In this document: positions 1 through 34,001 of the stretch, piece after piece | Layout: every line of letters begins with the position of its first letter | Numbering within the stretch: position 1 is the stretch's first letter | NCBI GenBank assembly: GCA_014376785.1 | Contig: JACMQW010000018.1 | Coordinates: 9,536 to 73,535 of the forward strand | Length of the DNA stretch: 64,000 nt | Origin: Oligoflexia bacterium | GTDB lineage: Bacteria > Bdellovibrionota > UBA1018 | Reading direction: 5' to 3' | Translations under genes and position numbers: made by a program | Notes under the pieces: model-generated | Database searches by the model: none | Told to the model about the DNA's origin: nothing | Seen by the model: only the letters and a program-made list of their open reading frames with translations

Positions 1-1379
1 TTCGAACTTTCAACCGCAGCCGGCCTTGGTTCCCACCACTTTCCAAAATTCTCAATCGACTGTTCGGCCATCAATTTTCGTAAATCATCTTTGCGAAGTC
101 CCGCAGCGCCTTCGAAAACCGCCGGGTCGTAAATGGCGAAGCAGGCATTGATGGGTTGGTAGGTAGCGGGGTCAGAACCCGTGATGTAGCGCAGAAGTGC
201 TCCCATCGCGGTATTCGGTGGTGGGACATCCAGTGGTCTTCCGAGGAGGCGCTCGTAGATGAAATTTGCTGCCATGAGTCCGCATGCGGCGCTCTCCAGG
301 TAGCCTTCGACCCCGGTGATTTGTCCAGCGAGGTAGACTTTCGGATGACCTCTGAGCGAAAGATCTGCCCTCAAAACCCGTGGTCCACAAACGTAGGTGT
401 TTCGGTGGATCGACCCTAGTCGGAGGAATTCGGCATTTTTCAGCGCGGGAATCATGCGGAAGATTTTCGCCTGCTCACCGTATTTTAATTTTGTCTGGAA
501 CCCGACCAAATTATACGCCGTTTTCGAGGCGTTTTCAGCGCGGAGTTGGACGCAAGCGTAAGGGCGTCGTCCTGTCCGCGGATCGGTGAGGCCGACGGGC
601 TTCATCGGTCCGAATCGGAGCGTCTCTCGGCCCGTAGCTGCGATGGATTCGATCGGTTGGCACCCTTGGAAAAGAATTTCTTTTTCGAAATTTTTCGGCG
701 GGACTTTCTCACCCGCGATCAGCGCATTTAAGAACGCTTCGTATTCTTCTTCGGTGAGTGGACAATTTAAGTAAGCTTCCTCGCCGCCCTTGTCGTAGCG
801 GTTCGCCAGAAAAATACTTTCATGGTCGAGGGATGAGGCGTCCACGATCGGGGCGATCGCGTCGTAGAAATAAAGGTCTTTGCCTTCCTGCCCTTCGGGC
901 GCACTAGCCGCGGTGGCTTTGATCAGCCACTGAGTGAGGGGTTCCGAGGTGAGGGGACCCGTAGCGAAGAGGGTGATTCCATCCGCGAAGGGTTCGGTGA
1001 CTTCTTCGGAATGGCGAAAAATACGCGGATGAGACGCAAGTTTTTCAGTGACGTATTTTGCGAAAACGTCGCGGTCGACCGCGAGCGCTTCTCCGGCAGG
1101 AACTTTCGCCACCTCGGAACCCTCTAATGCCAGGGATCCCATCGCTTTCATCTCCGCTTTCATCATGCCGGGAGCGGAGAGCGGGTTCGTCGTCTTGAAA
1201 GAGTTTGAGCAGACGAGTTCTGCGCATCGGTCGGTGTGGTGCGCTTCGGTCATCTTCTTCGGGCGCATCTCGTGGAGATGAATCTCAAGGTCTGCAGTTT
1301 CTGCATGGCGGGCAAGAAACCAAGCGGCTTCGCTTCCCGCTAAACCAGCGCCGACGATATGAATTTTTCGTAATGCCAT
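1..1379 (-). CDS. trmFO: Methylenetetrahydrofolate--tRNA-(uracil-5-)-methyltransferase TrmFO (Gid), 3' part runs off the window start
   Basis: The minus-strand ATG at 1377-1379 gives MALRKIHIVGAGLAGSEAAWFLARHAETADLEIHLHEMRPKKMT, a Rossmann FAD motif followed by an EMRP segment typical of TrmFO. An internal in-frame segment reads TGRETLRFGPM. No stop is reached before position 1, and the ORF track omitted it because there is no stop in the window. Confidence 0.65.
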   Translation of the reverse strand, partial: MALRKIHIVGAGLAGSEAAWFLARHAETADLEIHLHEMRPKKMTEAHHTDRCAELVCSNSFKTTNPLSAPGMMKAEMKAMGSLALEGSEVAKVPAGEALAVDRDVFAKYVTEKLASHPRIFRHSEEVTEPFADGITLFATGPLTSEPLTQWLIKATAASAPEGQEGKDLYFYDAIAPIVDASSLDHESIFLANRYDKGGEEAYLNCPLTEEEYEAFLNALIAGEKVPPKNFEKEILFQGCQPIESIAATGRETLRFGPMKPVGLTDPRTGRRPYACVQLRAENASKTAYNLVGFQTKLKYGEQAKIFRMIPALKNAEFLRLGSIHRNTYVCGPRVLRADLSLRGHPKVYLAGQITGVEGYLESAACGLMAANFIYERLLGRPLDVPPPNTAMGALLRYITGSDPATYQPINACFAIYDPAVFEGAAGLRKDDLRKLMAEQSIENFGKWWEPRPAAVESS

Positions 1380-22873: not shown

Positions 22874-24133
22874 GTGGGCACACGCAACTTCAAACTCTTG
22901 ATCGTCTTTTTCTTATTCTTTTCCGCCGTAACCACTCAAGCGGAATGTCGCAATGTGGATTTGAACCGAGAGAGTCCTTTAAAGGAAATGCCGGTGCTTG
23001 ATCAGGATGGGACGGGGACCTGTTATGCCCAGGTAGCAGCCCAACTGATCAACTTCAAGCTCAAGACCAACCGATCGAATTTCCAGGTGTCGTCGATCGA
23101 TCTGGCTTTGGTCGGCGCCACTTCTTCGCGTTTTTTCGACAGGGACTCGCTAACGGCTGGTCAGGTGGCTCCTCTCATAGAAGCAGCCGGGAAATATGGA
23201 GTTGCTTCGAAAGCTTGTGTGGACTCTGAAATCAAACGATTCCACCAAGACGCGGGACTCTCCACCGAACAGTTTACGGCGATTCTCGAATCGATGAATG
23301 AAAGTTCATCCTATTTTTTAACTCGAGCTGCCGAAAGACGCTTGGCCGAGTTCGACATCAGCCAAAATCCTGATATTTCAAGCTGCCGTTACAAGGCCAC
23401 TCTCGATGTCCTCGATCGGCGCGGCCTCTGGGGAAGTTCGGTAACTGAAGTTTTGAATCAGGTCCTCTACCGTTGTCGAAGCGAGAGAAAGAAAATTTCA
23501 AATTTAGATTATGACTCGCTGACTATTGGAACAGACGCCGAGATGATGAATGAAGTGGATAGGATACTCGATCGGAAGATTCCAGTCAGTGCCGGCTTAT
23601 GTGCGCCGATTTTACTCGAGTCTAAAGAGTATTCGGGACTGGCTGGAAAGTCTCCGCCTTTGGACCGGGGTTCGCTTGATAATTTCACCAAAGAAAAATG
23701 CGAGCCTCACCAAACCCTGATCGTTGGCAGAAATCAGTTTTCGGATGGTAGTTGTCGGTATTTGGTACGGAATTCCTGGGGAGGAGCGTGGAAAACCGAC
23801 GGTTTAACCTGCGCTTGCAAGACGAGCGATGGCGTCTACCACTCAGACTGCAAATCTGCGGAGAGTGGCATAAAAGTAAAAGAGAAACAGATTTCGGAGC
23901 GGATTTCAGAATCGAATCGGCTAAGCGATCGCTATGAAGCGCTGAAAATCCGCCATCCCGAAGAAGCAAAGAAAGTTCTAAGGGAAAGTAAGATCCAAAA
24001 AATGAAGTTTAATATTGATTTAGATGAGCTTAAAAAATTGCGAGAGGAATACGAACAACGGGCATATGTCGGTTGTTGGATCGATTCTAAAAATCTGAAG
24101 AAAAATGTTTTTCACGTGGGCTCACTGAAGTGA
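22874..24133 (+). CDS. Secreted papain-like (C1 family) cysteine protease with C-terminal coiled-coil extension
   Basis: GTG start and a signal peptide ending TTQA. The catalytic Cys context is DQDGTGTCYAQVAAQ. A His-containing HQTLIVG and VRNSWGGAWKTDG (the NSWG motif) follow. The last ~100 aa are charged (KVKEKQISERISESNRLSDRYEALK...). Confidence 0.65.
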   Translation: MGTRNFKLLIVFFLFFSAVTTQAECRNVDLNRESPLKEMPVLDQDGTGTCYAQVAAQLINFKLKTNRSNFQVSSIDLALVGATSSRFFDRDSLTAGQVAPLIEAAGKYGVASKACVDSEIKRFHQDAGLSTEQFTAILESMNESSSYFLTRAAERRLAEFDISQNPDISSCRYKATLDVLDRRGLWGSSVTEVLNQVLYRCRSERKKISNLDYDSLTIGTDAEMMNEVDRILDRKIPVSAGLCAPILLESKEYSGLAGKSPPLDRGSLDNFTKEKCEPHQTLIVGRNQFSDGSCRYLVRNSWGGAWKTDGLTCACKTSDGVYHSDCKSAESGIKVKEKQISERISESNRLSDRYEALKIRHPEEAKKVLRESKIQKMKFNIDLDELKKLREEYEQRAYVGCWIDSKNLKKNVFHVGSLK

Positions 24134-24534
24134 TCGGAAAAATCATGAGAGGCGCAGTTTTCACACTTTTGTTTTTGGGCTTCGCAGGGGCAGCAGAGTC
24201 TGTTGGCTTACCTAAGTGTGAGCAGCCGTTCGTTGCTTTCTTGGAATCTGGGGAGAAGGTTCGCTTCTGTGATTTTGAAAGTCTGATGGTCTCAGAAAGT
24301 TGCATCCGAGATGTTGCTGCTTGTCGCGAACTCGTTGCCCTGAAAAAAAATCTCTCTAAAATAAAAGAAACGTTTCGATCCGGGGAATATGCGGCAAAGC
24401 GAAATCCGGGTTCGAAGATTTGCGACCTCCTCGGCTGGAAGGTGGATATGGCAACGGGTTACGATGAGAGCCAGATTTGCGTCTGTGTGGCGCCATTAGG
24501 ACTTCGAGTAATTTGTAGTTCGATGCTTCCCTGA
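24130..24534 (+). CDS. Small secreted Cys-rich protein overlapping the C1 protease stop (possible cognate inhibitor/chaperone)
   Basis: GTG at 24130 overlaps TGA (GTGA). An alternative ATG lies at 24145. The signal is MRGAVFTLLFLGFAGAA. 8 Cys in ~115 aa. Confidence 0.45.
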   Translation: MIGKIMRGAVFTLLFLGFAGAAESVGLPKCEQPFVAFLESGEKVRFCDFESLMVSESCIRDVAACRELVALKKNLSKIKETFRSGEYAAKRNPGSKICDLLGWKVDMATGYDESQICVCVAPLGLRVICSSMLP

Positions 24535-24678
24535 TGTGTGGATGCTTAGTTAGCCAAACTCGTTGTTTCCGGGAATGAACGTCTCTTAGAGTTTCACGCC
24601 GAAAATTATTGGAGCCGTGATCTTTGAGGTGAAGGTGTATTGATTTTCAATCGATGCCTTTTCCAATATTGTTTTCAT

Positions 24679-25965
24679 ATGAAAATGAAGTCCCAAATTT
24701 GCTTTGGAATCATTCTGAATTCCGTCGCTTTTCCATTTTTATCCTGGGCATCCGACCCATTAAGAATCCAATCGCCAGAGGTAGGGGATTGCGCAATGAT
24801 AGCCGGGCCCGCTAATCTGCTCCAGCAGCCGGATGGAAAAATTTTTAAGTCCCTGCCGGACTCTAATCGATTCAGAATCGTAAAACAGGAAAGTCCCTGG
24901 ATTAAAATTGAATCCAGAACGAACGACAATGCCCATTTTTGCTCTAACGATGATCAGGAAACGGATGGACCCGAAGAATCAATCAGTGGTTGGATTCATG
25001 CAAAAAGTATTAAGAAGCTGACAACCAGCCAGCTATTCAAAGAGTTTCCCCGAGCTCTCAGCTTACGTCTTGAACGGGACTTGAGAAGCTCAGAGCCGAT
25101 GTGGACTGCTGTAGTGGACAAAAAGGAATGCGAATGTTTCCGCAGTTCTTCAAGCTATGGGCCGAGTTCAGAATCCTCGAATAAGGTTTACACTCGTTCG
25201 ACGAAATTGAGCGGGCTTTGCAAAAGCACCACAGATTTTGTTTTCTGTCAGGACACTCACCTGCTTCCGGCACAAGTCTGGGCTTCTACTCTTTGTCCAA
25301 GAGCTTGCCTCAAATTGAGCGATGCTCCGTTGCTCGCACTCGAGAAAAAAATTCAGCGACTAGAACTTTTAAGTCGATCAGCAAGAGGAGATTACAAATT
25401 AAAAGTATCGCCATTTACTTGGAAAACTCTCGAGCGAGAGTATCCGAATTGGCTGGCCGCGAATTACACGACTTTTGGATATTCGCTAAATGAGAAGCTT
25501 CAACGTGCGATGTATGATCGGATATTTGACCTGGAACTGGCGACATTTTTTCATCGGGGAGAGATTAGCTTCCGGGGCAAAAAGCGAAATGTTGAGATCG
25601 TAATTTTTTTTGAGACGACGAAAGATTTCATCGCAGAGAACCCCAGTTGGATCGCGACAGATGTTGGGTCTAGCGAGTTACTTTGGAAAGAAAAATTGCA
25701 TCTGGAATCAAGAGGTTTCATGAAGGGAAAAGCCCCTCAGTTCTGTATCTTTCCCGAGACGAAAAGTTCTGAACACCCTGACTTCCTAGTCTACGTTCAG
25801 AACCAGATGGGCGACGGATGGTCGGATTTAGGACTGATCACCACGGATGCGGTAGGTAAAATTCAGAATGTTGACAAGAGTACTGCAGAGGACAAGCTAC
25901 TCAGCGGTTCTTTGGGGAATTGGATTCATTTGATCGATCAATGTAAGCTTTTTGTTACTCAGTAG
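24679..25965 (+). CDS. Secreted hypothetical protein
   Basis: ATG at 24679 (MKMKSQICFGIILNSVAFPFLSWA, signal peptide). 429 aa, Cys-rich, with no recognisable catalytic motif. Confidence 0.5.
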   Translation: MKMKSQICFGIILNSVAFPFLSWASDPLRIQSPEVGDCAMIAGPANLLQQPDGKIFKSLPDSNRFRIVKQESPWIKIESRTNDNAHFCSNDDQETDGPEESISGWIHAKSIKKLTTSQLFKEFPRALSLRLERDLRSSEPMWTAVVDKKECECFRSSSSYGPSSESSNKVYTRSTKLSGLCKSTTDFVFCQDTHLLPAQVWASTLCPRACLKLSDAPLLALEKKIQRLELLSRSARGDYKLKVSPFTWKTLEREYPNWLAANYTTFGYSLNEKLQRAMYDRIFDLELATFFHRGEISFRGKKRNVEIVIFFETTKDFIAENPSWIATDVGSSELLWKEKLHLESRGFMKGKAPQFCIFPETKSSEHPDFLVYVQNQMGDGWSDLGLITTDAVGKIQNVDKSTAEDKLLSGSLGNWIHLIDQCKLFVTQ

Positions 25966-26013: not shown

Positions 26014-26226
26014 TTAACCGCGTTTCTTCATTCGGCCCCAAATGGAGAGGAGACAGAGGAGCGTCCCCATCGCTGCGGGCTTTAAAGCGATCAGGGATTC
26101 AAAGCTGAAAACAAACGAAAGAATGTAAACCAAGACCGCCATCCCAAGGAAAGTGAGTCCCAGGTAGACGAGTCGTGGGTCGTCGAGTGTTCGAATCTTT
26201 TTCATAGATCGCCAGATGTTTCTCAA
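26014..26226 (-). CDS. Small two-TM membrane protein (hypothetical)
   Basis: 70 aa with two hydrophobic segments. No homology recognised. Confidence 0.3.
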   Translation of the reverse strand: MRNIWRSMKKIRTLDDPRLVYLGLTFLGMAVLVYILSFVFSFESLIALKPAAMGTLLCLLSIWGRMKKRG

Positions 26227-26341
26227 AGTTGGAGCCCGGGATTGGCCATCACTCCCTCAAACCTGCGCGCCCTACCGTGCCAGATCCCGGTCAAAAAATC
26301 GCGTCCAGTCCCGCGCAAGACTTCGCTCATCCATCGTCCCG

Positions 26342-26443
26342 CTTTCAAAAGCCTAAAAAAGAGTTCCGCAGCGACCGAGCAGTTGACCGCAGAGAACCAT
26401 TCCCGAACGCGAGGACTATTTGATTTTTTAGGCTTTTGAAAGG
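26342..26443. repeat. Inverted-repeat element (20-bp arms, 62-bp spacer) immediately 3' of tRNA-Leu
   Basis: Left arm 26342-26361 is GCTTTCAAAAGCCTAAAAAA (with an outer G/C mismatch) and right arm 26424-26443 is TTTTTTAGGCTTTTGAAAGG. The architecture parallels the 9954-10080 element. Confidence 0.5.
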
Positions 26444-26464
26444 GGGATGATGGATGAAGGAAAA

Positions 26465-26549
26465 TGGTGCCCGGGACTGGACTCGAACCAGCATGCTGTT
26501 AGGCGCTCGCCCCTGAAACGAGTGTGTCTACCAATTCCACCACCCGGGC
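26465..26549 (-). tRNA. tRNA-Leu (anticodon CAG), class II with long variable arm, CCA encoded
   Basis: The reverse complement is GCCCGGG-TG-GTGGAATTGGTAGACAC-A-CTCGT-TTCAGGG-GCGAG-CGCCTAACAGCAT-GCTGGTTCGAGTCCAGT-CCCGGGC-A-CCA. It has a perfect 7-bp acceptor stem, the anticodon loop has U33 with anticodon CAG and G37, and a TTCGA T-loop. Confidence 0.85.
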
Positions 26550-26621
26550 ACATCAGAGAGTTCCCGTGTTAACGAATTCAGCGGGCCTCTGTCAACTGGC
26601 TTGTGGACCGGCATCCTACCC

Positions 26622-27149
26622 TTAATTGGCTATCAGGAGCGACGAAATGCTCTTCTTACAGGTCGAGGGAAGGATGAAAGAGGTCCCGACGGGGGCCAGG
26701 GAATTTGCCGTGGTGCCGTAATTGAAAAGTTCCACGGTGTTCATGCTGGGGTGCACGCTGGCGACTAAGATGCGTCCGTCATCCATTACGGTGAGCGCTG
26801 AAATGCCCGCCACCACACTCGGGTCGTTATAGACATGAACTCCGTTCGTGATCGCGGTCGCTGACACGTCGTAACTGTAGATCGAATGAACCGGGACAAT
26901 ACTATTTGAGTAAGCCACGAAGAGTTTTCCCGACGAGTGCAGAAGCATGGCCGTCGGGAAAGGGTTCACCGTCGGAGTGGAAATGGCATTCACACAATCA
27001 GTGCTAACGGAGTAACCCGTCTTTTTTACGATTCCGATTCGATTCTGGGCGGCGGCGGCGTGGGCAAAAAGAATGTCTCGATTCGCTTTCTGGCTAATAG
27101 CGGAACTAAGCGTCGTCGATGTCGCGCAAGGTCCTGCGGGTGCATTCAC
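26622..27149 (-). pseudogene. Fragment of a YVTN/lactonase-type beta-propeller repeat protein, with no proper start
   Basis: Repeat-like segments are GKLFVAYSNSIVPVHSIYSYDV and DGRILVASVHPSMNTVELFNYGT. The ORF begins at an internal GTG right after an in-frame TAG. It is only 175 aa and sits between the tRNA and the IS remnant. Confidence 0.4.
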
Positions 27150-27628
27150 CCATGGAGTCGTTGCCCCGATCGAAGTCCGGTTGCGGGCGCTGTTAAATTT
27201 TTCGATGAAGGTCTATCGACTGACAAGCCGCTCTCCTACTTCCCGCTGCATTCTCCAAGAGCACTAAAAGGTGATCGTGGTCATAAGGAATAACCTTTAC
27301 CGGCTGATCGCCCGGCGAGGTGTTGAAGTCCTAAATGGTTCGATCGAAAGCGCCGTTCAAGGCGTGGCGGACGATGGTGTTTCTCGCGCTAAGAGGAGTC
27401 TCTCCGTTCCCAGCGCGATTAACTTAACAGGTGCAAACCAAAGCTAAGTTTTTGAACTCATGAAAGGTTTCCCCATGACGAGTTCGCGTTAGAATCTCAG
27501 TATTATTTCTCTCTTATCTCCCGAAGCATTTCCATAAAAAACACCTGCTTCGCTCGAATAAAAAAACGAATACATCGCGCAATCGAAAGTTCGATCCCAA
27601 GGTTTTCTTTCACACGCTGATCGTCTTA

Positions 27629-28397
27629 GTGGGCGGGGAAAATCACGAAGGTTACTCACATGCGCTGATGAAAGTATGGAGCGGAAAACGCAGATTAGAA
27701 AATGCGCCCGCCCGAAGCTCCCTCGCTCGTCTCCGAAAATGGATCTCCTACCTCTTCTTCAAAGATCATTTCGAGAAACTCGTAAAGAAAGCGGACGCTG
27801 TTAGATCGACCTATTTAGGGCTTCGAATCTACGCCATCGACGGGCAGATGTTGACGCTTCCCAAATCAAAAGAAATCACGCAGGCGGGCTTCACGGGCGT
27901 GAGCAAGGATCTGAGATTTACGAACCGAGCGCGAGAGCCTGGTGATTTACGACCGACTGTACTTTGGAGTGAGGCTCGTGAAGGCGCACTACCGCCGCGG
28001 TAATCACTTTTTATTTCGCCTGAAAAAGAACGCGAATAGGGAGATTGCGGCGTTCTTTCAAGACCCGGCCCGGCCGACGACCGCCACGTTTATGCTCGGA
28101 GAAAAGTTTGAGGTGAATCTCGTACGCATCTTTGACGCGAAAAACAGAAGGCACGACGTCTTCGCAACGAGCTTGCCGATCGATTTCTTGAAGCCGCATT
28201 TAATTGCGAAACTCTACCGGCTCCGCTGGGAAGTGGAGACCTCGTTTCTAGAGCTCACGGGCATCACGAAGGCAGAACAGTGGCATTCGAAATCCGTGAA
28301 CGGCATCCTGCAGGAGCTCTACGCGAAGTTTTGGCTCATTAACTACACGAAGCTTCAGATTCACGCTCAGACCCAGAAACCGAGGGGTTCTATATGA
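27629..28397 (+). mobile_element. IS4-family transposase remnant (frameshifted, 5'-truncated)
   Basis: Two overlapping ORFs lie in different frames (27629-28003 and 27942-28397). The second carries the IS4 signature LYRLRWEVETSFLELTG. Combined they give ~255 aa against ~400 aa for an intact transposase. Confidence 0.65.
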
Positions 28398-28744
28398 ATT
28401 CGATTGCTTACGAAAAAGGTCACTGGAGAGGAGGAAGCATCGATCACGACGCTACAAACGAGAGATTAAGAAACCGCTAAGTCCTTATCCTTACAACAAT
28501 TGCAAATGGGTTTGGGACGCTTAAGGCAACGGCATTACACGAAGAGTGCGCATTTTCTCTGGTCAGGTGTCTAAATTTTTTACAGTTTGTGCAAATTGTC
28601 CTATGACTCGAAACTTTGTAAGATCTTGTAATCACGATCTAATTTATCCGCTGAGAAAATTGACTGTGCGCGGCACGGTCTTGGCATTAGCCCGCCCGGG
28701 TATCTTAAAGATCCCGTGACGAAAAGATGCCCCCGGAGAAATTT

Positions 28745-29692
28745 ATGAAAATGATGAAACAAGCAGGATTTGGAATTTTGAGCGCACTCTCACTCGTTGG
28801 TTGTGGCGGCGGAGGTGGGGGCGCGGCTCCTGCTCAGCCCGCAGCAGCGATGAATCCCACCGGAAATTATTACCAGACGCAAGGATCGCAACCCTACAAT
28901 TGCCAATCGGGCATGATCCAACTCCGAAACGCTTTCGGACAAACCCAATGTTTCAATACGGTGAATCTCGCTGAAGCCTGCATCCAGGCCCGCGGCATTT
29001 TCCAAGGAAACCTCTGCCGACGCGAACGAGTGATTCCATCCCGGAATGCGGTTTTTACGGTTCGGAACGTCCAGCCTTATTTCCCAGTCACCATTCCAGG
29101 AATTTCGGCTAGCCTCTATGCCGGAGAATCGCTGAAGCTTTCCGGATGTCTTGATAATGGGTATGGCGATGCAGAATGGAGCGCGCAACTTCTTCAAGGA
29201 GGAGTCGCAGTGGGTTCCGCATCGAGCCAATCCATGGTGATGAACGGTCAAAGCTCTGACAATTTTACGATTGCAGCAACGAGCTCAGGTTTTGCCGGCG
29301 GCGTAGGATACGCAAACGGTGGATATCAAACTCCTGGCTATCAGAACACCGGTTACCCAAACACAGGATATCAAAATACGGGATACCCAAACACAGGATA
29401 TCAAAATACGGGATACCCAAACACAGGATATCAAAACACCGGTTACCAGAATCAAGCCCCCTACAATAATGGGGCCTATACCAACACTCCCTATCCGAAT
29501 ACGGGCGCTTATCCGAATGCCGGAGTTTACCCGAATGGCCAAACGCCTTACGGAAACACGATGGCGATGATTCCGCAGAGCTACGATTTGCAGATTATGT
29601 TTGAGTACCGTGAGCCTAAAGTGAAGATCGCGCTGAAAATGTCGGCAGTCACCTGCGAAGACGGTCACGGAAACAACTATGCTTGCCCTTAA
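28745..29692 (+). CDS. Lipoprotein with G-Y-(Q/P)-N-T pentapeptide tandem repeats
   Basis: ATG at 28745 with a GGAGAA RBS. MKMMKQAGFGILSALSLVGCGGGGGG carries the lipobox LVGC. The repeat block reads GYQTPGYQNTGYPNTGYQNTGYPNTGYQNTGYPNTGYQNTGYQNQ. Confidence 0.65.
   Translation: MKMMKQAGFGILSALSLVGCGGGGGGAAPAQPAAAMNPTGNYYQTQGSQPYNCQSGMIQLRNAFGQTQCFNTVNLAEACIQARGIFQGNLCRRERVIPSRNAVFTVRNVQPYFPVTIPGISASLYAGESLKLSGCLDNGYGDAEWSAQLLQGGVAVGSASSQSMVMNGQSSDNFTIAATSSGFAGGVGYANGGYQTPGYQNTGYPNTGYQNTGYPNTGYQNTGYPNTGYQNTGYQNQAPYNNGAYTNTPYPNTGAYPNAGVYPNGQTPYGNTMAMIPQSYDLQIMFEYREPKVKIALKMSAVTCEDGHGNNYACP
29321..29455 (+). repeat. 9x tandem 15-nt coding repeat (period 15; two perfect 30-nt copies at 29366-29395 and 29396-29425)
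   Basis: GGATATCAAAATACGGGATACCCAAACACA is duplicated exactly. The adjacent units are degenerate. Confidence 0.8.
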
Positions 29693-29718: not shown

Positions 29719-32346
29719 ATGAATCGCAACGAACCACGCAACAAGCGACGTAAAGGCGAAGTAAAAGGTAAGGCCACTCAGGCTAAGCCCGGCGCTTCAA
29801 AGGTAAAATCAGAATCCGACGAAGCCCCGCGAGAGTCTCGCGAGGCTTTTGTCTTTACGGATCGGTCGGGTAAACAGCACCTGCTGCCCCCACGTGGAAA
29901 TTCAGCCGGGAATTCACACGCTCCCCTGAAACGCGATCATGATTCCGGTCGGAAACCGGAACAGGGTGGAAGAAAGTTTCCGCGAGGTCCTGGGAAACCA
30001 GCGGATCGTCAACCGAATGGCGGCACAAACGCTGGCGCGAAACCTTCCTTCTCGTTCAAAGCGCGCGGTGAAGATTCACCTGCTTTCCGCTCTCCCGCGG
30101 ATCGACCGCGTGACCGCACGAACGACCGAGGACGTGATGGTCGCGGGAATCGGGATTCGAACCGCAGTTCGCGTGGGCCTCATTCGGATCGAGGCAGCTC
30201 GCGAGGCGACCGTGAAAACTCTCGCGGTGACCGCGGCAGTTCACGAGGCGGAAGAGGTGAACCCCGCTCAGATCGTGGTGGTTCTCGAGGTGAACGCGGA
30301 GCCAGTCGGAGGGATCGCAACGACCGAGGTGACCGAGGTAGTAATCGGTCACGACGTCCGAGTGCGCCGCACGTTCCAAGCGAGAGCGATTTCAAATTAA
30401 AAGCTCGGATCGATAAAAACCGAAAAGGTTTTGCGTTTCTCCAATTTGAAAGCCGTGAATACGAGGACGCTTTCCTAAGCCCATTCGAGGCCGAACGATT
30501 CTTTCATGGCGACCGGGTCGAAGCCGTAGTTACGGAAGAGGGCGAAGTCGTCGAAGTGCGCGTGATCGAACATCGATTCCGCGAACTTGTGGGTCGTTAC
30601 TACCGCACGGGTAAAAACGGCATGGTCGTATACGAGCGGAAAAAAGCGCGCGAAGAATTATTAGTCGTAGGAGATTCGAAAAGCGCGAAAACTCGCGACT
30701 GGGTTCGTGCGAAAGTGATTTATCCGGAAGAAGAAAACGGACGCATCACTTGTGAAATCCTCGAAGCCTACGGTGAAGAGTTGCCGGCCAGCGCGGACAT
30801 TCAGATGGTTTCCGCAGAATACAATCTGGTCGAGGAGCATTCTCCAGAAGCAGTAGCCGAAGCCGAAAGTTTTAAGCTCGACCTCGCGGATCCTCACCGA
30901 GTGGATCTGCGCCATGTTCCTTTCATCACCATCGATGGTGAAACCGCTCGTGACTTCGATGATGCCGTTTACGTCGAACGCAATCGTGAAAATGGCTACA
31001 CGCTTTGGGTGGCGATCGCCGATGTCTCTCATTACGTTAGGCCCGGAACCACGCTCGATGATGAGGCGCTTTCGCGCGGGACTTCGGTGTATTTTCCGGA
31101 GCGGGCATTTCACATGCTCCCTCGCGCACTCTCAGAAAACCTCTGTTCGCTTCGGCCGGATGGTCCTCGGCTCACGATGACCGCTAAAATCGATTACGAC
31201 CGAACGGGTAAAAAGCTTCGAGTCGAAGTGATGAACTCGCTCATCCAAAGTCGGAGAAGAGCGACCTACAACGAAATCCAAAAAGAGGCCGACGAAAACG
31301 TCGGCGTGGCGGGTTGGGAATTCCGCGTGCATTACGATCTGTACGCCATTCTTCGAAAGAAAAAAAACGAACGCGGTTCCATCGATTTCGATCTTCCCGA
31401 AGCCGAAGTGAAAGTCGAACCGACCGGCGAACCGATCTCAATCAAAAACCGACCCCGTCTGGATGCACATCGGTTGATCGAAGAGTTCATGATCGCGGCG
31501 AACGAATCCGTGACGGAATGGGCGCTGGAACGCGAGTGGCCTTTCGTCTACCGCGTGCACGACGAACCCTCCGCGGGTGCGATGGCGAAATTCGCTGATC
31601 TCTGCAAACACCATGGTGTGCCCTTCGTGGTGGACAAAGATAATCTCGGCGAAGCGTTGAACGAAGTCGTGAAATCCCTCGAAGGAAATCCGGCCCAGAT
31701 TCTGCTGAATATGGCGCTCCTTCGTTCGATGGCCCAAGCTCACTACTCGTCCGCACATGGGATCCATTTTGGCCTCGCTTCGCAAGCTTACACGCACTTT
31801 ACCTCGCCGATTCGCCGGTATCCCGATTTGGTCGTGCATCGCATGTTAAAGCTCGCTCTGGATTACGAACGCGAGAAGAAGATTCTCGAAGATGACGAGC
31901 GTGAAGAAATCGAAAAAAAGTTAGCCGAAATCACCGAACACTGTAGCTACCGTGAGCGGATCGCGTCGGATGCCGAACGCGAGTCCATTAAACTCAAGCA
32001 AACTCGTATTATGCTGAAAGAGATCGGAAATGAATTCCCAGCAAAGGTGAATGGGATGTTAGAGGCGGGAATGTTTGCGACTCTGGAAGATCCCTTCGTG
32101 GAAGGTTTCATCGCAACCGAAGCGATGGCAGGAGATTCTTTTTCATTCAACGTCGAACGCCAGGTATTCGTCGGTCGACGAAGCAAGAAAACCTTTAAGA
32201 TCGGGGATTCGATTCGCGTGCGCGTAGACAACGTGGATCTCGATCTTCGGCGCATCGATCTCGGATTGGTCGCGGACGATTCGGATCGCGTGCCGACGGT
32301 TGCTGAAACGATGAAGGAACTGCTGAAGGCGGACGACGAATCATGA
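29719..32346 (+). CDS. rnr: Ribonuclease R (RNB family 3'-5' exoribonuclease) with ~225-aa N-terminal Arg/Gly/Ser/Asp-rich low-complexity extension
   Basis: The cold-shock region is KGFAFLQFESREYEDAFL...HGDRVEAVV. The RNB catalytic core contains FITIDGETARDFDDAVYVE. A C-terminal S1-like domain is present. The N-terminus is DRGSSRGDRENSRGDRGSSRGGRGEPRSDRGGSRGERGASRRDRNDRGDRGSNRS. Confidence 0.85.
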   Translation: MNRNEPRNKRRKGEVKGKATQAKPGASKVKSESDEAPRESREAFVFTDRSGKQHLLPPRGNSAGNSHAPLKRDHDSGRKPEQGGRKFPRGPGKPADRQPNGGTNAGAKPSFSFKARGEDSPAFRSPADRPRDRTNDRGRDGRGNRDSNRSSRGPHSDRGSSRGDRENSRGDRGSSRGGRGEPRSDRGGSRGERGASRRDRNDRGDRGSNRSRRPSAPHVPSESDFKLKARIDKNRKGFAFLQFESREYEDAFLSPFEAERFFHGDRVEAVVTEEGEVVEVRVIEHRFRELVGRYYRTGKNGMVVYERKKAREELLVVGDSKSAKTRDWVRAKVIYPEEENGRITCEILEAYGEELPASADIQMVSAEYNLVEEHSPEAVAEAESFKLDLADPHRVDLRHVPFITIDGETARDFDDAVYVERNRENGYTLWVAIADVSHYVRPGTTLDDEALSRGTSVYFPERAFHMLPRALSENLCSLRPDGPRLTMTAKIDYDRTGKKLRVEVMNSLIQSRRRATYNEIQKEADENVGVAGWEFRVHYDLYAILRKKKNERGSIDFDLPEAEVKVEPTGEPISIKNRPRLDAHRLIEEFMIAANESVTEWALEREWPFVYRVHDEPSAGAMAKFADLCKHHGVPFVVDKDNLGEALNEVVKSLEGNPAQILLNMALLRSMAQAHYSSAHGIHFGLASQAYTHFTSPIRRYPDLVVHRMLKLALDYEREKKILEDDEREEIEKKLAEITEHCSYRERIASDAERESIKLKQTRIMLKEIGNEFPAKVNGMLEAGMFATLEDPFVEGFIATEAMAGDSFSFNVERQVFVGRRSKKTFKIGDSIRVRVDNVDLDLRRIDLGLVADDSDRVPTVAETMKELLKADDES

Positions 32347-34001
32347 AATGGCTTCGGAGAGGACGTCAGCTGAATCTGGCTGTCCGCAATTCGAGACGGC
32401 TCCGCGAAATCCTCGGTGTTTTCGCAAAACACGGATTCACCGACGTCGCCGTTCGGATGGACCTGGAGCGGTTTCTTCCCGCACGGTGGAAATCGGGACT
32501 GATCGCCGCGAGTGATCGTCCGACGGAAGAACGTCTACGCATTGCATTCGAGGAACTCGGGCCGACATTCGTCAAGCTTGGGCAGGTTCTGGCGACCCGT
32601 TCTGATTTGATTCCCCAAGATTTCGTCGATGAATTAAAAAAACTGCAGGATAACGTTTCGACCCTTCCTTTCGAAATGATTCGCACTGTAGTCGAGAGAG
32701 AACTCGGAAAACCACTGACGGAGGCTTTCGCTTCGTTTGAAGAAAAACCCATTGCTGCCGCTAGTATCGCGCAAGTTCACGGAGCTGTTCTACCGACCGG
32801 TGAAAAAGTCGTCGTAAAAATTCAAAGGCCCGATCTCGAGCGAATCATTAATCGAGATGTGGCGCTTTTAGATTTTCTAGCAAAGCTTTTAGAAAAATAC
32901 GTGCCGGAGTCTCGAATCTTCGCGCCAGCCACGATCGTCGATGAGTTTTTTCGCACGCTCAAGCTCGAACTCGATTTCCATATCGAAGCAAATAACATCG
33001 GCCGCATCACGGAAAATCTTGCTGAATTTAAAGATGTGAAGCTGCCGCACGTCTACCGCACGCACTCGACGCGCCACATTCTGACCCTAGAACGGTTTTT
33101 CGGTATTCCGATGACCCAGATCGCTGAAGTGAAAGCGAAGGGTTATGATTTGAAGCATCTCAATGAAGTGGGCGCCCGTGCTTTCTTCAAGACCGTCGTG
33201 AAAGACGGTATTTTTCACGGTGACCTTCATGGCGGGAATCTTTTTGTTTTAGAGGACGGTAAGCTCGGGCTCATCGATTTTGGAATTGTGGGGCGTCTCT
33301 CGCGCCGTTCCCGCCAACAGCTCTCGAGCATGGTCTTGGCGATCATGACTGAGGATTTCGAAGCGCTTTGTTACCAATACGCGGAACTGGGTTCGGCAGG
33401 ACCGAACGTGGATTTTGATGGGTTCCAGCGCGAAGTGCGAAACGCATTGGCTCCTTACCTAGGGCTGAGAGCAAAAGACATCAACTCGGGGCAAGTCCTC
33501 ATCGAGGCCACGAAAATTGCGGCGAAGTATGAAATTCGTGTGCCCGGCGACTGGATGATTGTTTTCCGCGCTCTGTTTACGGTGGAGGGACTCGGCCGGG
33601 AGCTGGATCCTGATTTCGACATGATGACTTTGGGTCGGGAACTTATGGTCGATTTGGTGAAAGACCAGTATTCTCCTGAGAACTTTTCGAAAGACGCGCT
33701 TTGGATCGCGAAAGACATGATGGCGCTTGCGCTGGTCTTGCCGCGGCAGATTCGTTGGATGTTTAAAAAATTCAGCGCAGACGGCTACGCGTTCGAAGTG
33801 AAATCTCCGCAGCTCGACCAACTGACCGCAGGTCTCGAGCGAAATACCCGAAAGCTCAGTCTCTCGATCCTGACGACGGGACTGGTCATAGCGGCCGCAC
33901 TCAGTATGCAGGCTCCCGAAGCCATCCATCGCTTTAAGGGGTATCCGGCCCCGACGATCGTGCTTTTAGTTTTAGCGCTTTGGACTTGGTTCAGAGTCTA
34001 G
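32343..34001 (+). CDS. ubiB: UbiB/ABC1 atypical kinase family protein (ubiquinone biosynthesis)
   Basis: ASIAQVHGAVLPTGEKVVVKIQRP and FHGDLHGGNLFVLEDGKLGLIDFGIVGRL are present. C-terminal TM helices. ATGA overlap with rnr. Confidence 0.8.
   Translation: MKWLRRGRQLNLAVRNSRRLREILGVFAKHGFTDVAVRMDLERFLPARWKSGLIAASDRPTEERLRIAFEELGPTFVKLGQVLATRSDLIPQDFVDELKKLQDNVSTLPFEMIRTVVERELGKPLTEAFASFEEKPIAAASIAQVHGAVLPTGEKVVVKIQRPDLERIINRDVALLDFLAKLLEKYVPESRIFAPATIVDEFFRTLKLELDFHIEANNIGRITENLAEFKDVKLPHVYRTHSTRHILTLERFFGIPMTQIAEVKAKGYDLKHLNEVGARAFFKTVVKDGIFHGDLHGGNLFVLEDGKLGLIDFGIVGRLSRRSRQQLSSMVLAIMTEDFEALCYQYAELGSAGPNVDFDGFQREVRNALAPYLGLRAKDINSGQVLIEATKIAAKYEIRVPGDWMIVFRALFTVEGLGRELDPDFDMMTLGRELMVDLVKDQYSPENFSKDALWIAKDMMALALVLPRQIRWMFKKFSADGYAFEVKSPQLDQLTAGLERNTRKLSLSILTTGLVIAAALSMQAPEAIHRFKGYPAPTIVLLVLALWTWFRV

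What the first reader, a model, noticed from the sequence alone, without database searches (positions are those of the whole stretch)
26342..28397. tRNA-Leu(CAG) embedded in a decayed patch: IR element, promoterless beta-propeller fragment and a broken IS4 transposase
A well-formed 85-nt class-II tRNA-Leu lies on the minus strand at 26465-26549. Its 3' flank carries a 20-bp-armed inverted repeat. Its 5' flank holds a 175-aa YVTN-propeller fragment that starts right after an in-frame TAG. Further out is an IS4-family transposase split into two frames and lacking about 150 N-terminal residues (signature LYRLRWEVETSF retained). This is the footprint of past insertion and deletion at a tRNA hotspot. 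Genes on either side (23-26 kb, 28.7-32 kb) may be island cargo.
Basis: partly seen in the sequence, partly recalled or inferred. Interest (0 to 1): 0.5.

Follow-up and report, generated by a model that had tools for sequence, protein, structure and literature searches.

The report
Decayed insertion-sequence scar beside tRNA-Leu
An intact leucine tRNA gene in an uncultured Bdellovibrio-like bacterium has about 1.9 kb of dead DNA (a broken jumping gene fused to a broken propeller-protein gene) next to its promoter and an odd long hairpin at its 3' end; this is ordinary genome decay, not a tRNA-targeted genomic island.

Summary

- **tRNA:** tRNA-Leu(CAG) at 26465-26549(-) is intact.
- **Insert:** Two related metagenome contigs (L088, L089) have only 215-240 bp between this tRNA and a divergent lipoprotein gene. 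In L089, RNase R follows the lipoprotein gene. The window has about 1.94 kb extra at this point (about 26599-28537).
- **Propeller pseudogene:** It spans 26622-27413(-), longer than the 175-aa ORF. It has lost 24 N-terminal codons and 33 internal codons, and carries one frameshift and two stop codons.
- **IS4-family remnant:** It spans 27414-28537(+) and abuts the pseudogene directly. The right inverted repeat is intact. The left ~61 bp, including the left inverted repeat, are gone. Internal deletions of about 119 and 95 bp break the reading frame. The transposase N-terminus is not missing 150 residues.
- **Position and island test:** The insert lies on the tRNA's 5'/promoter side. No integrase and no direct repeat of the tRNA 3' end were found, and the dinucleotide signature is uniform. 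The right-hand genes (lipoprotein, RNase R, UbiB) are conserved neighbours, not cargo.
- **Inverted repeat:** Its arms are 62/63 nt, not 20 bp, and one arm includes the tRNA's own last ~19 nt. It is unique to this genome and its origin is unresolved.

Overall interest is low.

The parts
26465..26549 (-). Intact class-II tRNA-Leu(CAG) with encoded CCA
   Evidence: ARAGORN. Rfam RF00005 47.5 bits. 99% identical over 99 nt to the tRNA in L088 and 96% over 119 nt to L089.
26550..26598 (-). tRNA upstream block conserved with L089. It includes a TTGACA hexamer (reverse complement at 26591-26596). The promoter assignment is an inference.
   Evidence: Local alignment of the window's tRNA 5' flank against the L089 intergenic region scores 35, against a shuffle mean of 14.3 and maximum of 25. 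Alignment A2. The consensus promoter scan did not call this site.
26299..26360 (.). Distal arm of the long quasi-palindrome. 26299-26317 is an inverted 17/19 copy of tRNA positions ~55-73; 26322-26360 is an inverted copy of the tRNA's 3' flank.
   Evidence: the repeat finder pairs I1 and I3. Alignment and shuffle test.
26361..26423 (.). 63-nt spacer (loop) of the quasi-palindrome
26424..26486 (.). Proximal arm of the quasi-palindrome: the tRNA's 3' trailer (26424-26464) plus the tRNA's own T-loop, T-stem and acceptor 3' strand (26465-26486)
   Evidence: RNA folds: -120.9 kcal/mol, z = -5.9 with the tRNA included; -71.2 kcal/mol, z = -5.4 for the trailer alone.
26293..26298 (-). T6 run directly after the base of the long hairpin on the tRNA strand. 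It may be a terminator tail (inference).
   Evidence: Read from the sequence. Not called by the terminator scan.
26599..28537 (.). Insert of about 1.94 kb relative to the empty sites in L088 and L089. The left junction is uncertain by a few nt; the right junction is the IS terminus.
   Evidence: In L089 the tRNA 5' end and the lipoprotein start are 215 bp apart; in L088 about 240 bp. Homology resumes at the 34-nt motif at 28554.
26622..27413 (-). Pseudogene of a six-bladed beta-propeller-like protein. Codons 1-24 are missing. There is a TAA at 27333-27331, loss of about 33 codons plus a frameshift near 27235, and a TAG at 27215-27213. The 3' 175 codons (26622-27149) remain open and are annotated in NCBI as H7301_02895.
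   Evidence: tblastn with P0003: residues 25-85 match 27411-27235 and residues 119-322 match 27236-26631. Homologues. Fold.
27414..28537 (+). Remnant of an IS4-family insertion sequence, 1124 bp against about 1400 bp for intact relatives. The left ~61 bp with the left inverted repeat are absent. Net internal deletions are about 119 bp (27899-27925) and about 95 bp (28373-28395).
   Evidence: blastn against the intact copies in L083 (178-1577) and L081 (819-2219). NCBIfam transpos_IS4_1, 115 bits.
27497..28524 (+). Broken transposase reading frame in three frame segments. D at 27839-27841 (IYAIDGQ), D in IYDRLYFG (about 27945), E in YRLRWEVE (28215-28238). A 25-codon in-frame deletion lies after 27898. 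Frameshifts lie near 27927-27946 and 28375-28397.
   Evidence: tblastn with P0008, P0009 and P0036. Coordinates.
28519..28537 (+). Intact right terminal inverted repeat, GCTTAAGGCAACGGCATTA
   Evidence: Matches the 19-bp terminal inverted repeats of L083 and L081.
28554..28587 (+). Intergenic motif shared with L089 and L088 that marks where orthologous sequence resumes after the insert
   Evidence: 21/34 matches to the L089 motif (second best of 128,000 positions) and 20/34 to the L088 motif (tied best), both at the same position. Alignment A3. A pairwise local alignment of the whole 189-bp region was not significant.
28727..29692 (+). Lipoprotein gene, a conserved divergent neighbour of the tRNA
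   Evidence: 36.5% amino-acid identity to the L089 298-aa lipoprotein, which sits in the same position. C-terminal match in L001 directly upstream of RNase R.
29719..34001 (+). RNase R and UbiB genes, a conserved syntenic block

Best explanation
The tRNA-Leu(CAG) gene and the lipoprotein, RNase R and UbiB genes are an old, conserved neighbourhood in this Bdellovibrionota/Oligoflexia lineage.

In the window's lineage, an IS4-family insertion sequence (a cut-and-paste DDE transposon of about 1.4 kb with 19-bp terminal repeats and a 10-bp target duplication) became lodged in the short spacer between the tRNA's upstream block and the lipoprotein gene's upstream region. A propeller-protein gene of foreign or accessory origin came with it.

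A deletion across the IS/gene junction then removed the IS's left end and the gene's first ~24 codons. That deletion immobilised the IS and left the gene without a start or promoter. Both then decayed by further small deletions, frameshifts and stop codons. The ~190-aa partner gene that follows this propeller gene elsewhere is also gone.

The tRNA, its upstream block and the neighbouring operon were spared.

Separately, a 62-nt stretch running from the tRNA's T-loop to 41 nt past its 3' end was duplicated in inverted orientation 63 nt downstream. This made a long hairpin.

- **Shown:** the anatomy, the empty sites in relatives, the lesions, and the absence of island hallmarks.
- **Inferred:** the order of events, co-acquisition of the IS and the gene, and the origin of the hairpin.
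For: **Empty sites.** L089 has tRNA(-), 215 bp, lipoprotein(+), RNase R. L088 has the tRNA, about 240 bp, then a divergent lipoprotein start. The window has 2178 bp between the same two genes. Homology to L089 runs from the tRNA to 26598 (score 35 against a shuffle maximum of 25). It resumes at 28554.

**IS identity and ends.** Pfam DDE_Tnp_1 at 1.7e-12 to 2.7e-14. NCBIfam IS4, 115 bits. Intact relatives are 372-373 aa and up to 60% identical. Their IS copies are about 1400 bp with the repeat TAATGCCGTTGC(C/T)TTAAGC and, in L081, a 10-bp duplication GAAGCCTCCG. The window keeps only the right repeat.

**Lesion maps.**

**Pseudogene abuts the IS at 27413/27414.**

**Composition.** GC3 is 0.70 for the IS piece and 0.63 for the propeller piece, against 0.54 +/- 0.044 for window genes.

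**Not a binning or assembly chimera.** An independent Logan assembly (L084) is collinear and 99.93% identical over 8762 bp.

**No island hallmarks.** No integrase domain, no direct tRNA repeat, and a uniform dinucleotide signature.
Against: - The relatives are not close: RNase R is 61% identical at the amino-acid level and about 71% at the nucleotide level. Loss of the segment in their lineages, rather than gain here, cannot be formally excluded.
- Pairwise alignment of the 189 bp right of the IS with the L089 or L088 intergenic regions is not significant on its own. The right-hand orthology rests on one 34-nt motif and on gene order.
- No target duplication or second IS end marks the left junction, so how the propeller gene arrived is unknown.
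- The GC3 deviations come from only about 150-175 codons each.
Confidence: 0.78

Rival explanations
1. One reading: the patch is the remnant of a genomic island or prophage that integrated site-specifically into the tRNA-Leu gene, and the flanking genes are its cargo.
For: tRNA genes are classic integration targets (established knowledge). The gene content downstream of the tRNA's 3' end differs completely between the window and L088. The left genes 22874-25965 are orphans with slightly low GC3. A fragment of the tRNA 3' end starting in the T-loop, a typical crossover region, lies 150 nt downstream.
Against: That fragment is inverted, not direct, and its similarity continues 41 nt into the flank. 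No direct repeat exists in 64 kb. No integrase or recombinase domain was found in the ORFs tested from 10 to 49 kb. The IS and pseudogene lie on the 5' side of the tRNA. The right-hand genes are conserved neighbours. The dinucleotide signature is uniform.
Confidence: 0.07
2. The propeller operon was ancestral at this position and was lost cleanly in the L088 and L089 lineages. In the window lineage an IS simply inserted into its 5' end and the operon then decayed.
For: With only two moderately distant empty sites, the polarity is not proven. The pseudogene and IS are directly fused, as expected if the IS hit the gene.
Against: More distant relatives also have the tRNA close to RNase R without this gene (L006: about 95 bp; L002). 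The retained flanks on both sides of the insert sum to about 65 nt between the tRNA and the conserved motif, against 63 nt in L089. That fits an insertion into an intact spacer. Propeller homologues occur in unrelated contexts, one of them next to a Tn5-like transposase. GC3 is above the host mean.
Confidence: 0.12
3. The long inverted repeat is a functional RNA element of the tRNA transcript rather than a neutral duplication. It could be a very stable trailer hairpin followed by a U-run that terminates or directs 3' processing of pre-tRNA-Leu.
For: The trailer alone folds at -71.2 kcal/mol, z = -5.4. The inner 19 bp are perfect while the outer parts have mismatches. That pattern is not expected for uniform neutral decay. 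T6 follows the base of the full hairpin.
Against: It is absent from the 3' flank of the same tRNA in L088, L089, L002, L003, L006 and L009. L003 has an ordinary short hairpin instead. The terminator scan does not call it. The full hairpin would compete with the tRNA's own T-arm and acceptor stem. No covariation data are possible from one sequence.
Confidence: 0.2
4. The 141-188-bp inverted-repeat unit is a miniature inverted-repeat transposable element (MITE) that landed next to the tRNA.
For: Its size (141 bp) and 39-nt terminal repeats resemble MITEs.
Against: There is no target duplication. The inverted symmetry continues into the tRNA gene itself (17/19), which an inserted element would not cause. 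No second copy exists in the window, in any fetched locus, in IMG/VR, or in the phage or plasmid collections. The arms have no similarity to the IS ends.
Confidence: 0.04

Closest known systems
IS4-family insertion sequences (IS4 subgroup sensu De Palmenaer et al. 2008, PMC2266710)
   Same: DDE_Tnp_1 transposase with D(76)D(92-94)E spacing close to the family range. The Y-x2-R-x3-E part of the signature is present. Intact relatives encode a single ORF. Size is about 1.4 kb. The ends begin TAATG, fitting the subgroup consensus -AATR. The target duplication is 10 bp in L081.
   Different: The window copy is a fossil: no left end, three internal deletions and two frameshifts. The final K of the YREK signature is a T, both in this copy and in its intact relatives. 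The D-E spacer is slightly below the published 100-150. Identity to named elements such as ISPa1635 is only 23-26%.
tRNA-associated genomic islands and prophages (tyrosine-integrase elements)
   Same: It is adjacent to a tRNA gene. A partial copy of the tRNA 3' end, starting in the T-loop, lies nearby.
   Different: The copy is inverted rather than direct. There is no integrase. The inserted DNA is on the tRNA's 5' side. There is no compositional island.
Bacterial pseudogene decay by deletion bias after IS insertion
   Same: Multiple small deletions, frameshifts and stop codons affect both the IS and the adjoining gene. A junction-spanning deletion removed one IS end.
   Different: Nothing unusual. 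It is a textbook example in a poorly sampled phylum.
Six-bladed beta-propellers (YWTD/LDL-receptor, NHL, BtuG, SGL lactonase folds)
   Same: The AF2 model of homologue P0003 aligns to these folds with TM about 0.5-0.64 and Foldseek E down to 2e-8.
   Different: No sequence-family membership: there are no Pfam, NCBIfam or PDB sequence hits. Identity to any solved propeller is only 9-18%. Elsewhere it is always paired with an uncharacterised ~190-aa secreted partner.

Membership tests
IS4 family insertion sequence | DDE transposase (Pfam DDE_Tnp_1 / NCBIfam IS4 model) with D, D and E present | tested here: met
   PF01609 at 1.7e-12 and 2.7e-14. NF033592 at 115 bits, equal to its cut-off of 115, on the reconstructed remnant. 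All three catalytic residues were located.
IS4 family insertion sequence | Y(2)R(3)E(6)K signature (PMC2266710) | tested here: inconclusive
   Y, R and E are present (YRLRWEVE). The residue six positions after E is T, not K, in the window and in intact homologues P0008, P0009, P0011, P0033 and P0036.
IS4 family insertion sequence | Single uninterrupted transposase ORF | tested here: not met
   Intact relatives have one ORF of 372-373 aa. The window copy has two frameshifts and three deletions, so it is a degraded member, not a functional one.
IS4 family insertion sequence | Terminal inverted repeats at both ends | tested here: not met
   The right repeat is present at 28519-28537. The left ~61 bp, including the left repeat, are absent. 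No surrogate end was found near 26550-26700.
IS4 family insertion sequence | Target-site duplication of about 10 bp | tested here: inconclusive
   A 10-bp duplication, GAAGCCTCCG, flanks the related intact copy in L081. It cannot be assessed in the window because the left end is deleted.
tRNA-targeted integrative island or prophage | Tyrosine (or serine) recombinase gene next to the tRNA | tested here: not met
   Pfam scans of the longer ORFs (about 120 aa and up) between 10.3 and 49.2 kb, plus the 70-aa ORF next to the tRNA, found no integrase or resolvase domain.
tRNA-targeted integrative island or prophage | Direct repeat of the tRNA 3' end (attL/attR) bounding the element | tested here: not met
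   No match with up to 3 mismatches to 17- or 25-nt probes. blastn-short finds nothing longer than 11 nt, and that hit is the inverted copy.
tRNA-targeted integrative island or prophage | Inserted DNA lies downstream of the tRNA 3' end | tested here: not met
   The insert defined by the empty sites lies upstream of the tRNA's 5' end, at 26599-28537.
tRNA-targeted integrative island or prophage | Deviant base composition | tested here: inconclusive
   The dinucleotide signature is not deviant. GC3 is mildly low for 22874-25965 and mildly high for the two pseudogene pieces.
MITE | Terminal inverted repeats plus target duplication plus multiple dispersed copies | tested here: not met
   Repeats are present. 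There is no duplication, and no second copy in the window, the fetched loci, IMG/VR, phages or plasmids. The whole genome was not available.
YVTN / known beta-propeller sequence families | Significant match to a Pfam or NCBIfam propeller repeat model | tested here: not met
   No family hit at E <= 1. Only the fold is propeller-like.
Intrinsic (Rho-independent) terminator | Short GC-rich stem-loop immediately followed by a U-run | tested here: inconclusive
   T6 follows the base of the 62-bp hairpin and a 4-bp CGCG stem. The consensus scan does not call it.

The most novel reading that the evidence does not exclude
The long hairpin, in which the tRNA's own T-loop and acceptor 3' strand pair with a downstream inverted copy just before a U-run, may be a working device and not debris. 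One possibility is a terminator or processing switch that uses the mature tRNA's 3' end as one arm. Another is the relic of an unrecognised class of element that recombines at inverted copies of a tRNA end. A weak inverted fragment of the same tRNA's 5' part downstream of the tRNA in L088 would then hint at a recurring process at this gene.
Probability: 0.07. Interest if true: 0.5.

Novelty: new member of a known kind. Interest (0 to 1): 0.15.

Why it matters
It matters little beyond annotation.
- The public record annotates a pseudogene fragment (H7301_02895) and a transposase fragment as genes.
- The case gives a clean example, in a poorly sampled predatory-bacteria phylum, of an IS4-family element fossilised between a tRNA upstream block and a conserved operon without harming either.
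- It shows that 'decay next to a tRNA' need not mean integrase-mediated island insertion.
- The by-products may be more useful: an undescribed IS4-subgroup element with defined ends, and an uncharacterised propeller plus ~190-aa secreted two-gene module.

Tried and rejected
1. **Full-length inverted tRNA-Leu pseudogene at 26234-26320.** This was my own idea. Only the 3' 19 nt plus the flank are significantly similar. The body is at chance level (score 16, equal to the null mean; p = 0.15). ARAGORN does not call it even at relaxed thresholds. The fold is not better than shuffles. A GCCCGGG heptamer at the expected 5' end is a post hoc observation only.
2. **Homologue search with the 441-aa ORF (24640-25965)** to reach closer relatives found nothing, so the search was wasted.
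3. **Exact look-up of the lipoprotein** is not on record.
4. **Surrogate or second IS end at the left junction:** none found.
5. **Arm core in IMG/VR:** none.
6. **The tRNA's 22-nt 3' end in IMG/VR** hit 32 stretches. The nine loci tested with ARAGORN all carry whole 87-nt tRNA-Leu genes, most at the match position. This gave no att evidence.
7. **Hairpin region against phage and plasmid collections:** no match.
8. **The Rfam 'MIR447' hit** (36.8 bits against a gathering score of 200) is just a generic long hairpin.
9. **The partner gene of the propeller operon** is not present anywhere in the window.
10. **The genes downstream of the tRNA in L088** have no counterpart in the window, so they could not delimit an island.
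11. **P0017's contig** had no retrievable DNA.
Full report
**1. Observation check**

ARAGORN finds one tRNA in the 64-kb window: tRNA-Leu(CAG), 85 nt, on the minus strand at 26465-26549. Rfam's tRNA model scores it at 47.5 bits. The inverted repeat, the 175-aa ORF (26622-27149, minus) and a DDE transposase fragment (27942-28397, Pfam DDE_Tnp_1, 1.7e-12) are all present. So the objects exist. Several descriptions needed correcting, as set out below.

**2. The IS remnant**

I reconstructed the transposase across frames. The reconstruction reaches NCBIfam's IS4-family model at 115 bits, which equals that model's cut-off. It finds 112 homologues. The closest are intact 372-373-aa proteins, at most 60% identical.

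Two of these homologues gave DNA of intact elements:
- They are about 1400 bp long (L083 178-1577, L081 819-2219).
- They end in perfect 19-bp inverted repeats, TAATGCCGTTGC(C/T)TTAAGC.
- In L081 they are flanked by a 10-bp duplication, GAAGCCTCCG.

These features fit the IS4 family and its IS4 subgroup as defined in PMC2266710. One exception is that the last residue of the YREK signature is T in this whole clade.

Against these intact copies, the window element runs 27414-28537, which is 1124 bp.
- The right repeat is intact at 28519-28537.
- The left ~61 bp, including the left repeat, are absent.
- Net internal deletions of about 119 bp (27899-27925) and about 95 bp (28373-28395) remove 25 codons in frame and cause two frameshifts.

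The transposase aligns from residue 1 of the 373-aa homologues and from residue 11 of a 422-aa homologue. No other copy or fragment of this IS lies in the window.

**3. The propeller fragment**

The 175-aa ORF has no Pfam or NCBIfam hit. It does have six homologues besides itself, of 216-335 aa (the four longest are 298-335 aa), from Bdellovibrio-like sources. An AlphaFold model of one homologue (pLDDT 83.8, pTM 0.87) is an all-beta structure. It matches six-bladed propellers of the LRP/YWTD, NHL and BtuG types. The fold label therefore holds. The 'YVTN' family label does not.

tblastn shows that the gene remnant extends well beyond the ORF:
- Residues 25-85 of P0003 match 27411-27235, with a TAA at 27333-27331.
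- About 33 codons are then missing, with a frameshift.
- A TAG follows at 27215-27213, and then the open 175 codons.

The pseudogene (26622-27413) therefore abuts the IS remnant (27414 onward) base to base. One deletion across that junction explains both the missing IS end and the missing first 24 codons.

In three other contexts this gene is followed, with a 4-bp overlap, by a ~190-aa signal-peptide protein. In one context it sits beside a Tn5-like transposase. That partner gene is absent from the window.

**4. Synteny and the empty site**

RNase R relatives in reference genomes are at most 53-54% identical, and all are Bdellovibrionota/Oligoflexia MAGs. Several of them carry tRNA-Leu(CAG) near RNase R-UbiB.

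A metagenome scan with the lineage-specific 3' half of the tRNA found two contigs:
- **L089:** tRNA(-), 215 bp, lipoprotein(+), RNase R(+).
- **L088:** the tRNA, about 240 bp, then a divergent lipoprotein start.

The window has 2178 bp between the same two genes. Similarity to L089 runs from the tRNA through a conserved upstream block ending at a TTGACA hexamer (to 26598, score 35 against a shuffle maximum of 25). It reappears at a 34-nt motif at 28554. That position is the second-best match to the L089 motif, and tied best to the L088 motif, out of 128,000 positions. Whole-region pairwise alignment on that side was not significant.

The retained flanks sum to about 65 nt between the tRNA and the motif, against 63 nt in L089. 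The extra segment is therefore about 26599-28537, or 1.94 kb. It consists of 23 nt, the pseudogene and the IS remnant.

An independent Logan assembly (L084) is collinear and 99.93% identical over 8.8 kb. The arrangement is therefore not an assembly chimera.

**5. Island test**

- No direct repeat of the tRNA 3' end exists in the window.
- Pfam scans of the longer ORFs (about 120 aa and up) from 10 to 49 kb, plus the 70-aa ORF next to the tRNA, show housekeeping genes: flagellin, glutamate synthase, MCP, 2-oxoglutarate dehydrogenase and topoisomerase I. There is no recombinase.
- Dinucleotide signatures of 22.5-26.2 kb and 26.5-28.5 kb are ordinary.
- GC3 is mildly low for 22874-25965 (0.46-0.51). 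It is mildly high for the IS piece (0.70) and the propeller piece (0.63), against 0.54 +/- 0.044.
- The lipoprotein, RNase R and UbiB genes are conserved neighbours.
- The insert lies on the tRNA's 5' side.

The tRNA-hotspot island reading is therefore not supported. An IS-associated insertion followed by deletional decay is supported. How the propeller gene came to lie between the IS and the tRNA is unknown, because no second IS end or target duplication survives. A larger IS-bounded segment later trimmed by deletions is the simplest guess.

**6. The inverted repeat**

The repeat is much longer than reported. The arms 26322-26360 and 26424-26462 are 39 nt at 90% complementarity. After four unmatched bases, they continue into 26299-26317 and 26468-26486 at 17/19. 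The second of these outer segments is the tRNA's own T-loop, T-stem 3' strand and acceptor 3' strand.

The 62/63-nt arms score 84, against 16.4 +/- 3.4 for shuffles. The rest of the tRNA is not detectably copied.

The trailer hairpin is very stable: -71 kcal/mol, z = -5.4. With the tRNA end included it is -121 kcal/mol, z = -5.9. A T6 run follows it.

It is absent from the same position in six relatives. It is also absent elsewhere in the window, and from IMG/VR, phages and plasmids.

I take it to be a lineage-specific inverted duplication of the tRNA 3' end plus flank, possibly from a template switch. A functional trailer or terminator role is an unexcluded minority view. A MITE or an att relic is unlikely.

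**7. Verdict**

This is a real but ordinary decay patch: a fossil IS4-family element fused to a pseudogene, inserted beside (not into) an intact tRNA-Leu gene. The only unexplained feature is the tRNA-end-containing hairpin.

Noticed in passing
L085 5517-7090; L086 2727-4180; L087 855-2422: The propeller-like protein family (298-335 aa, no Pfam or NCBIfam) is always followed, with a 4-bp overlap, by a ~190-aa signal-peptide protein that also has no family. This is an uncharacterised conserved two-gene module. In L086 it sits next to a Tn5-like transposase.
   Followed up: partly
window 28554-28587; L089 about 245-278; L088 about 255-290 (reverse strand): A 34-nt motif containing the inverted repeat TGTCTAA...TTCGACA is shared between the tRNA-Leu upstream block and the lipoprotein gene in three genomes. 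It may be an operator or promoter element of the lipoprotein-RNase R operon.
   Followed up: partly
L088 353-369 and 492-508: Downstream of the identical tRNA-Leu gene in L088 lies a 15/17 inverted copy of tRNA positions ~5-21. Taken alone this is weak (chance estimate roughly 0.01-0.04 before correcting for six loci examined). It echoes the inverted tRNA-end copy in the window.
   Followed up: partly
window 26234-26240: The heptamer GCCCGGG (the tRNA's 5' acceptor strand) lies on the plus strand exactly where a full-length inverted tRNA copy would begin. The sequence between it and the 3' fragment is not significantly tRNA-like.
   Followed up: yes
window 28727-29692: The lipoprotein has tandem GYQNTGYPNT-type repeats (Pfam Pentapeptide_2, 4.8e-7). 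The Logan contig L084 ends inside this gene, probably because of the repeats.
   Followed up: no
window 29719-30400: RNase R carries an N-terminal extension of about 220 aa rich in R, G, S and D. This region is the strongest dinucleotide-signature outlier in the window. Relatives L002 and L089 have similar but shorter extensions.
   Followed up: no
window 22874-25965: Three secreted-looking orphan genes (a 419-aa protein with a marginal papain-like C1 peptidase hit, plus 134-aa and 441-aa proteins) have slightly low GC3. No homologue at all was found for the 441-aa ORF.
   Followed up: partly
window 26622-27149 (protein P0001): NCBI labels this MAG protein (H7301_02895) 'Cryobacterium sp.', an actinobacterium. 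Yet the closest relatives of the neighbouring conserved genes tested (RNase R, UbiB) are in Bdellovibrionota/Oligoflexia MAGs. This is likely a taxonomic mislabel or binning problem in the public record.
   Followed up: no
window 26014-26226 (minus): A small two-helix membrane ORF (63-70 aa) lies directly downstream of the tRNA and hairpin on the same strand. It is called as a gene in the Logan assembly. Whether it is real or co-transcribed is unknown.
   Followed up: no
window 21877, 22669, 24476, 24941, 25405, 28024: There are six single-base differences between the window and the independent Logan assembly L084 over 8762 bp. One lies inside the IS remnant. They may be strain-level polymorphism or consensus differences.
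   Followed up: no
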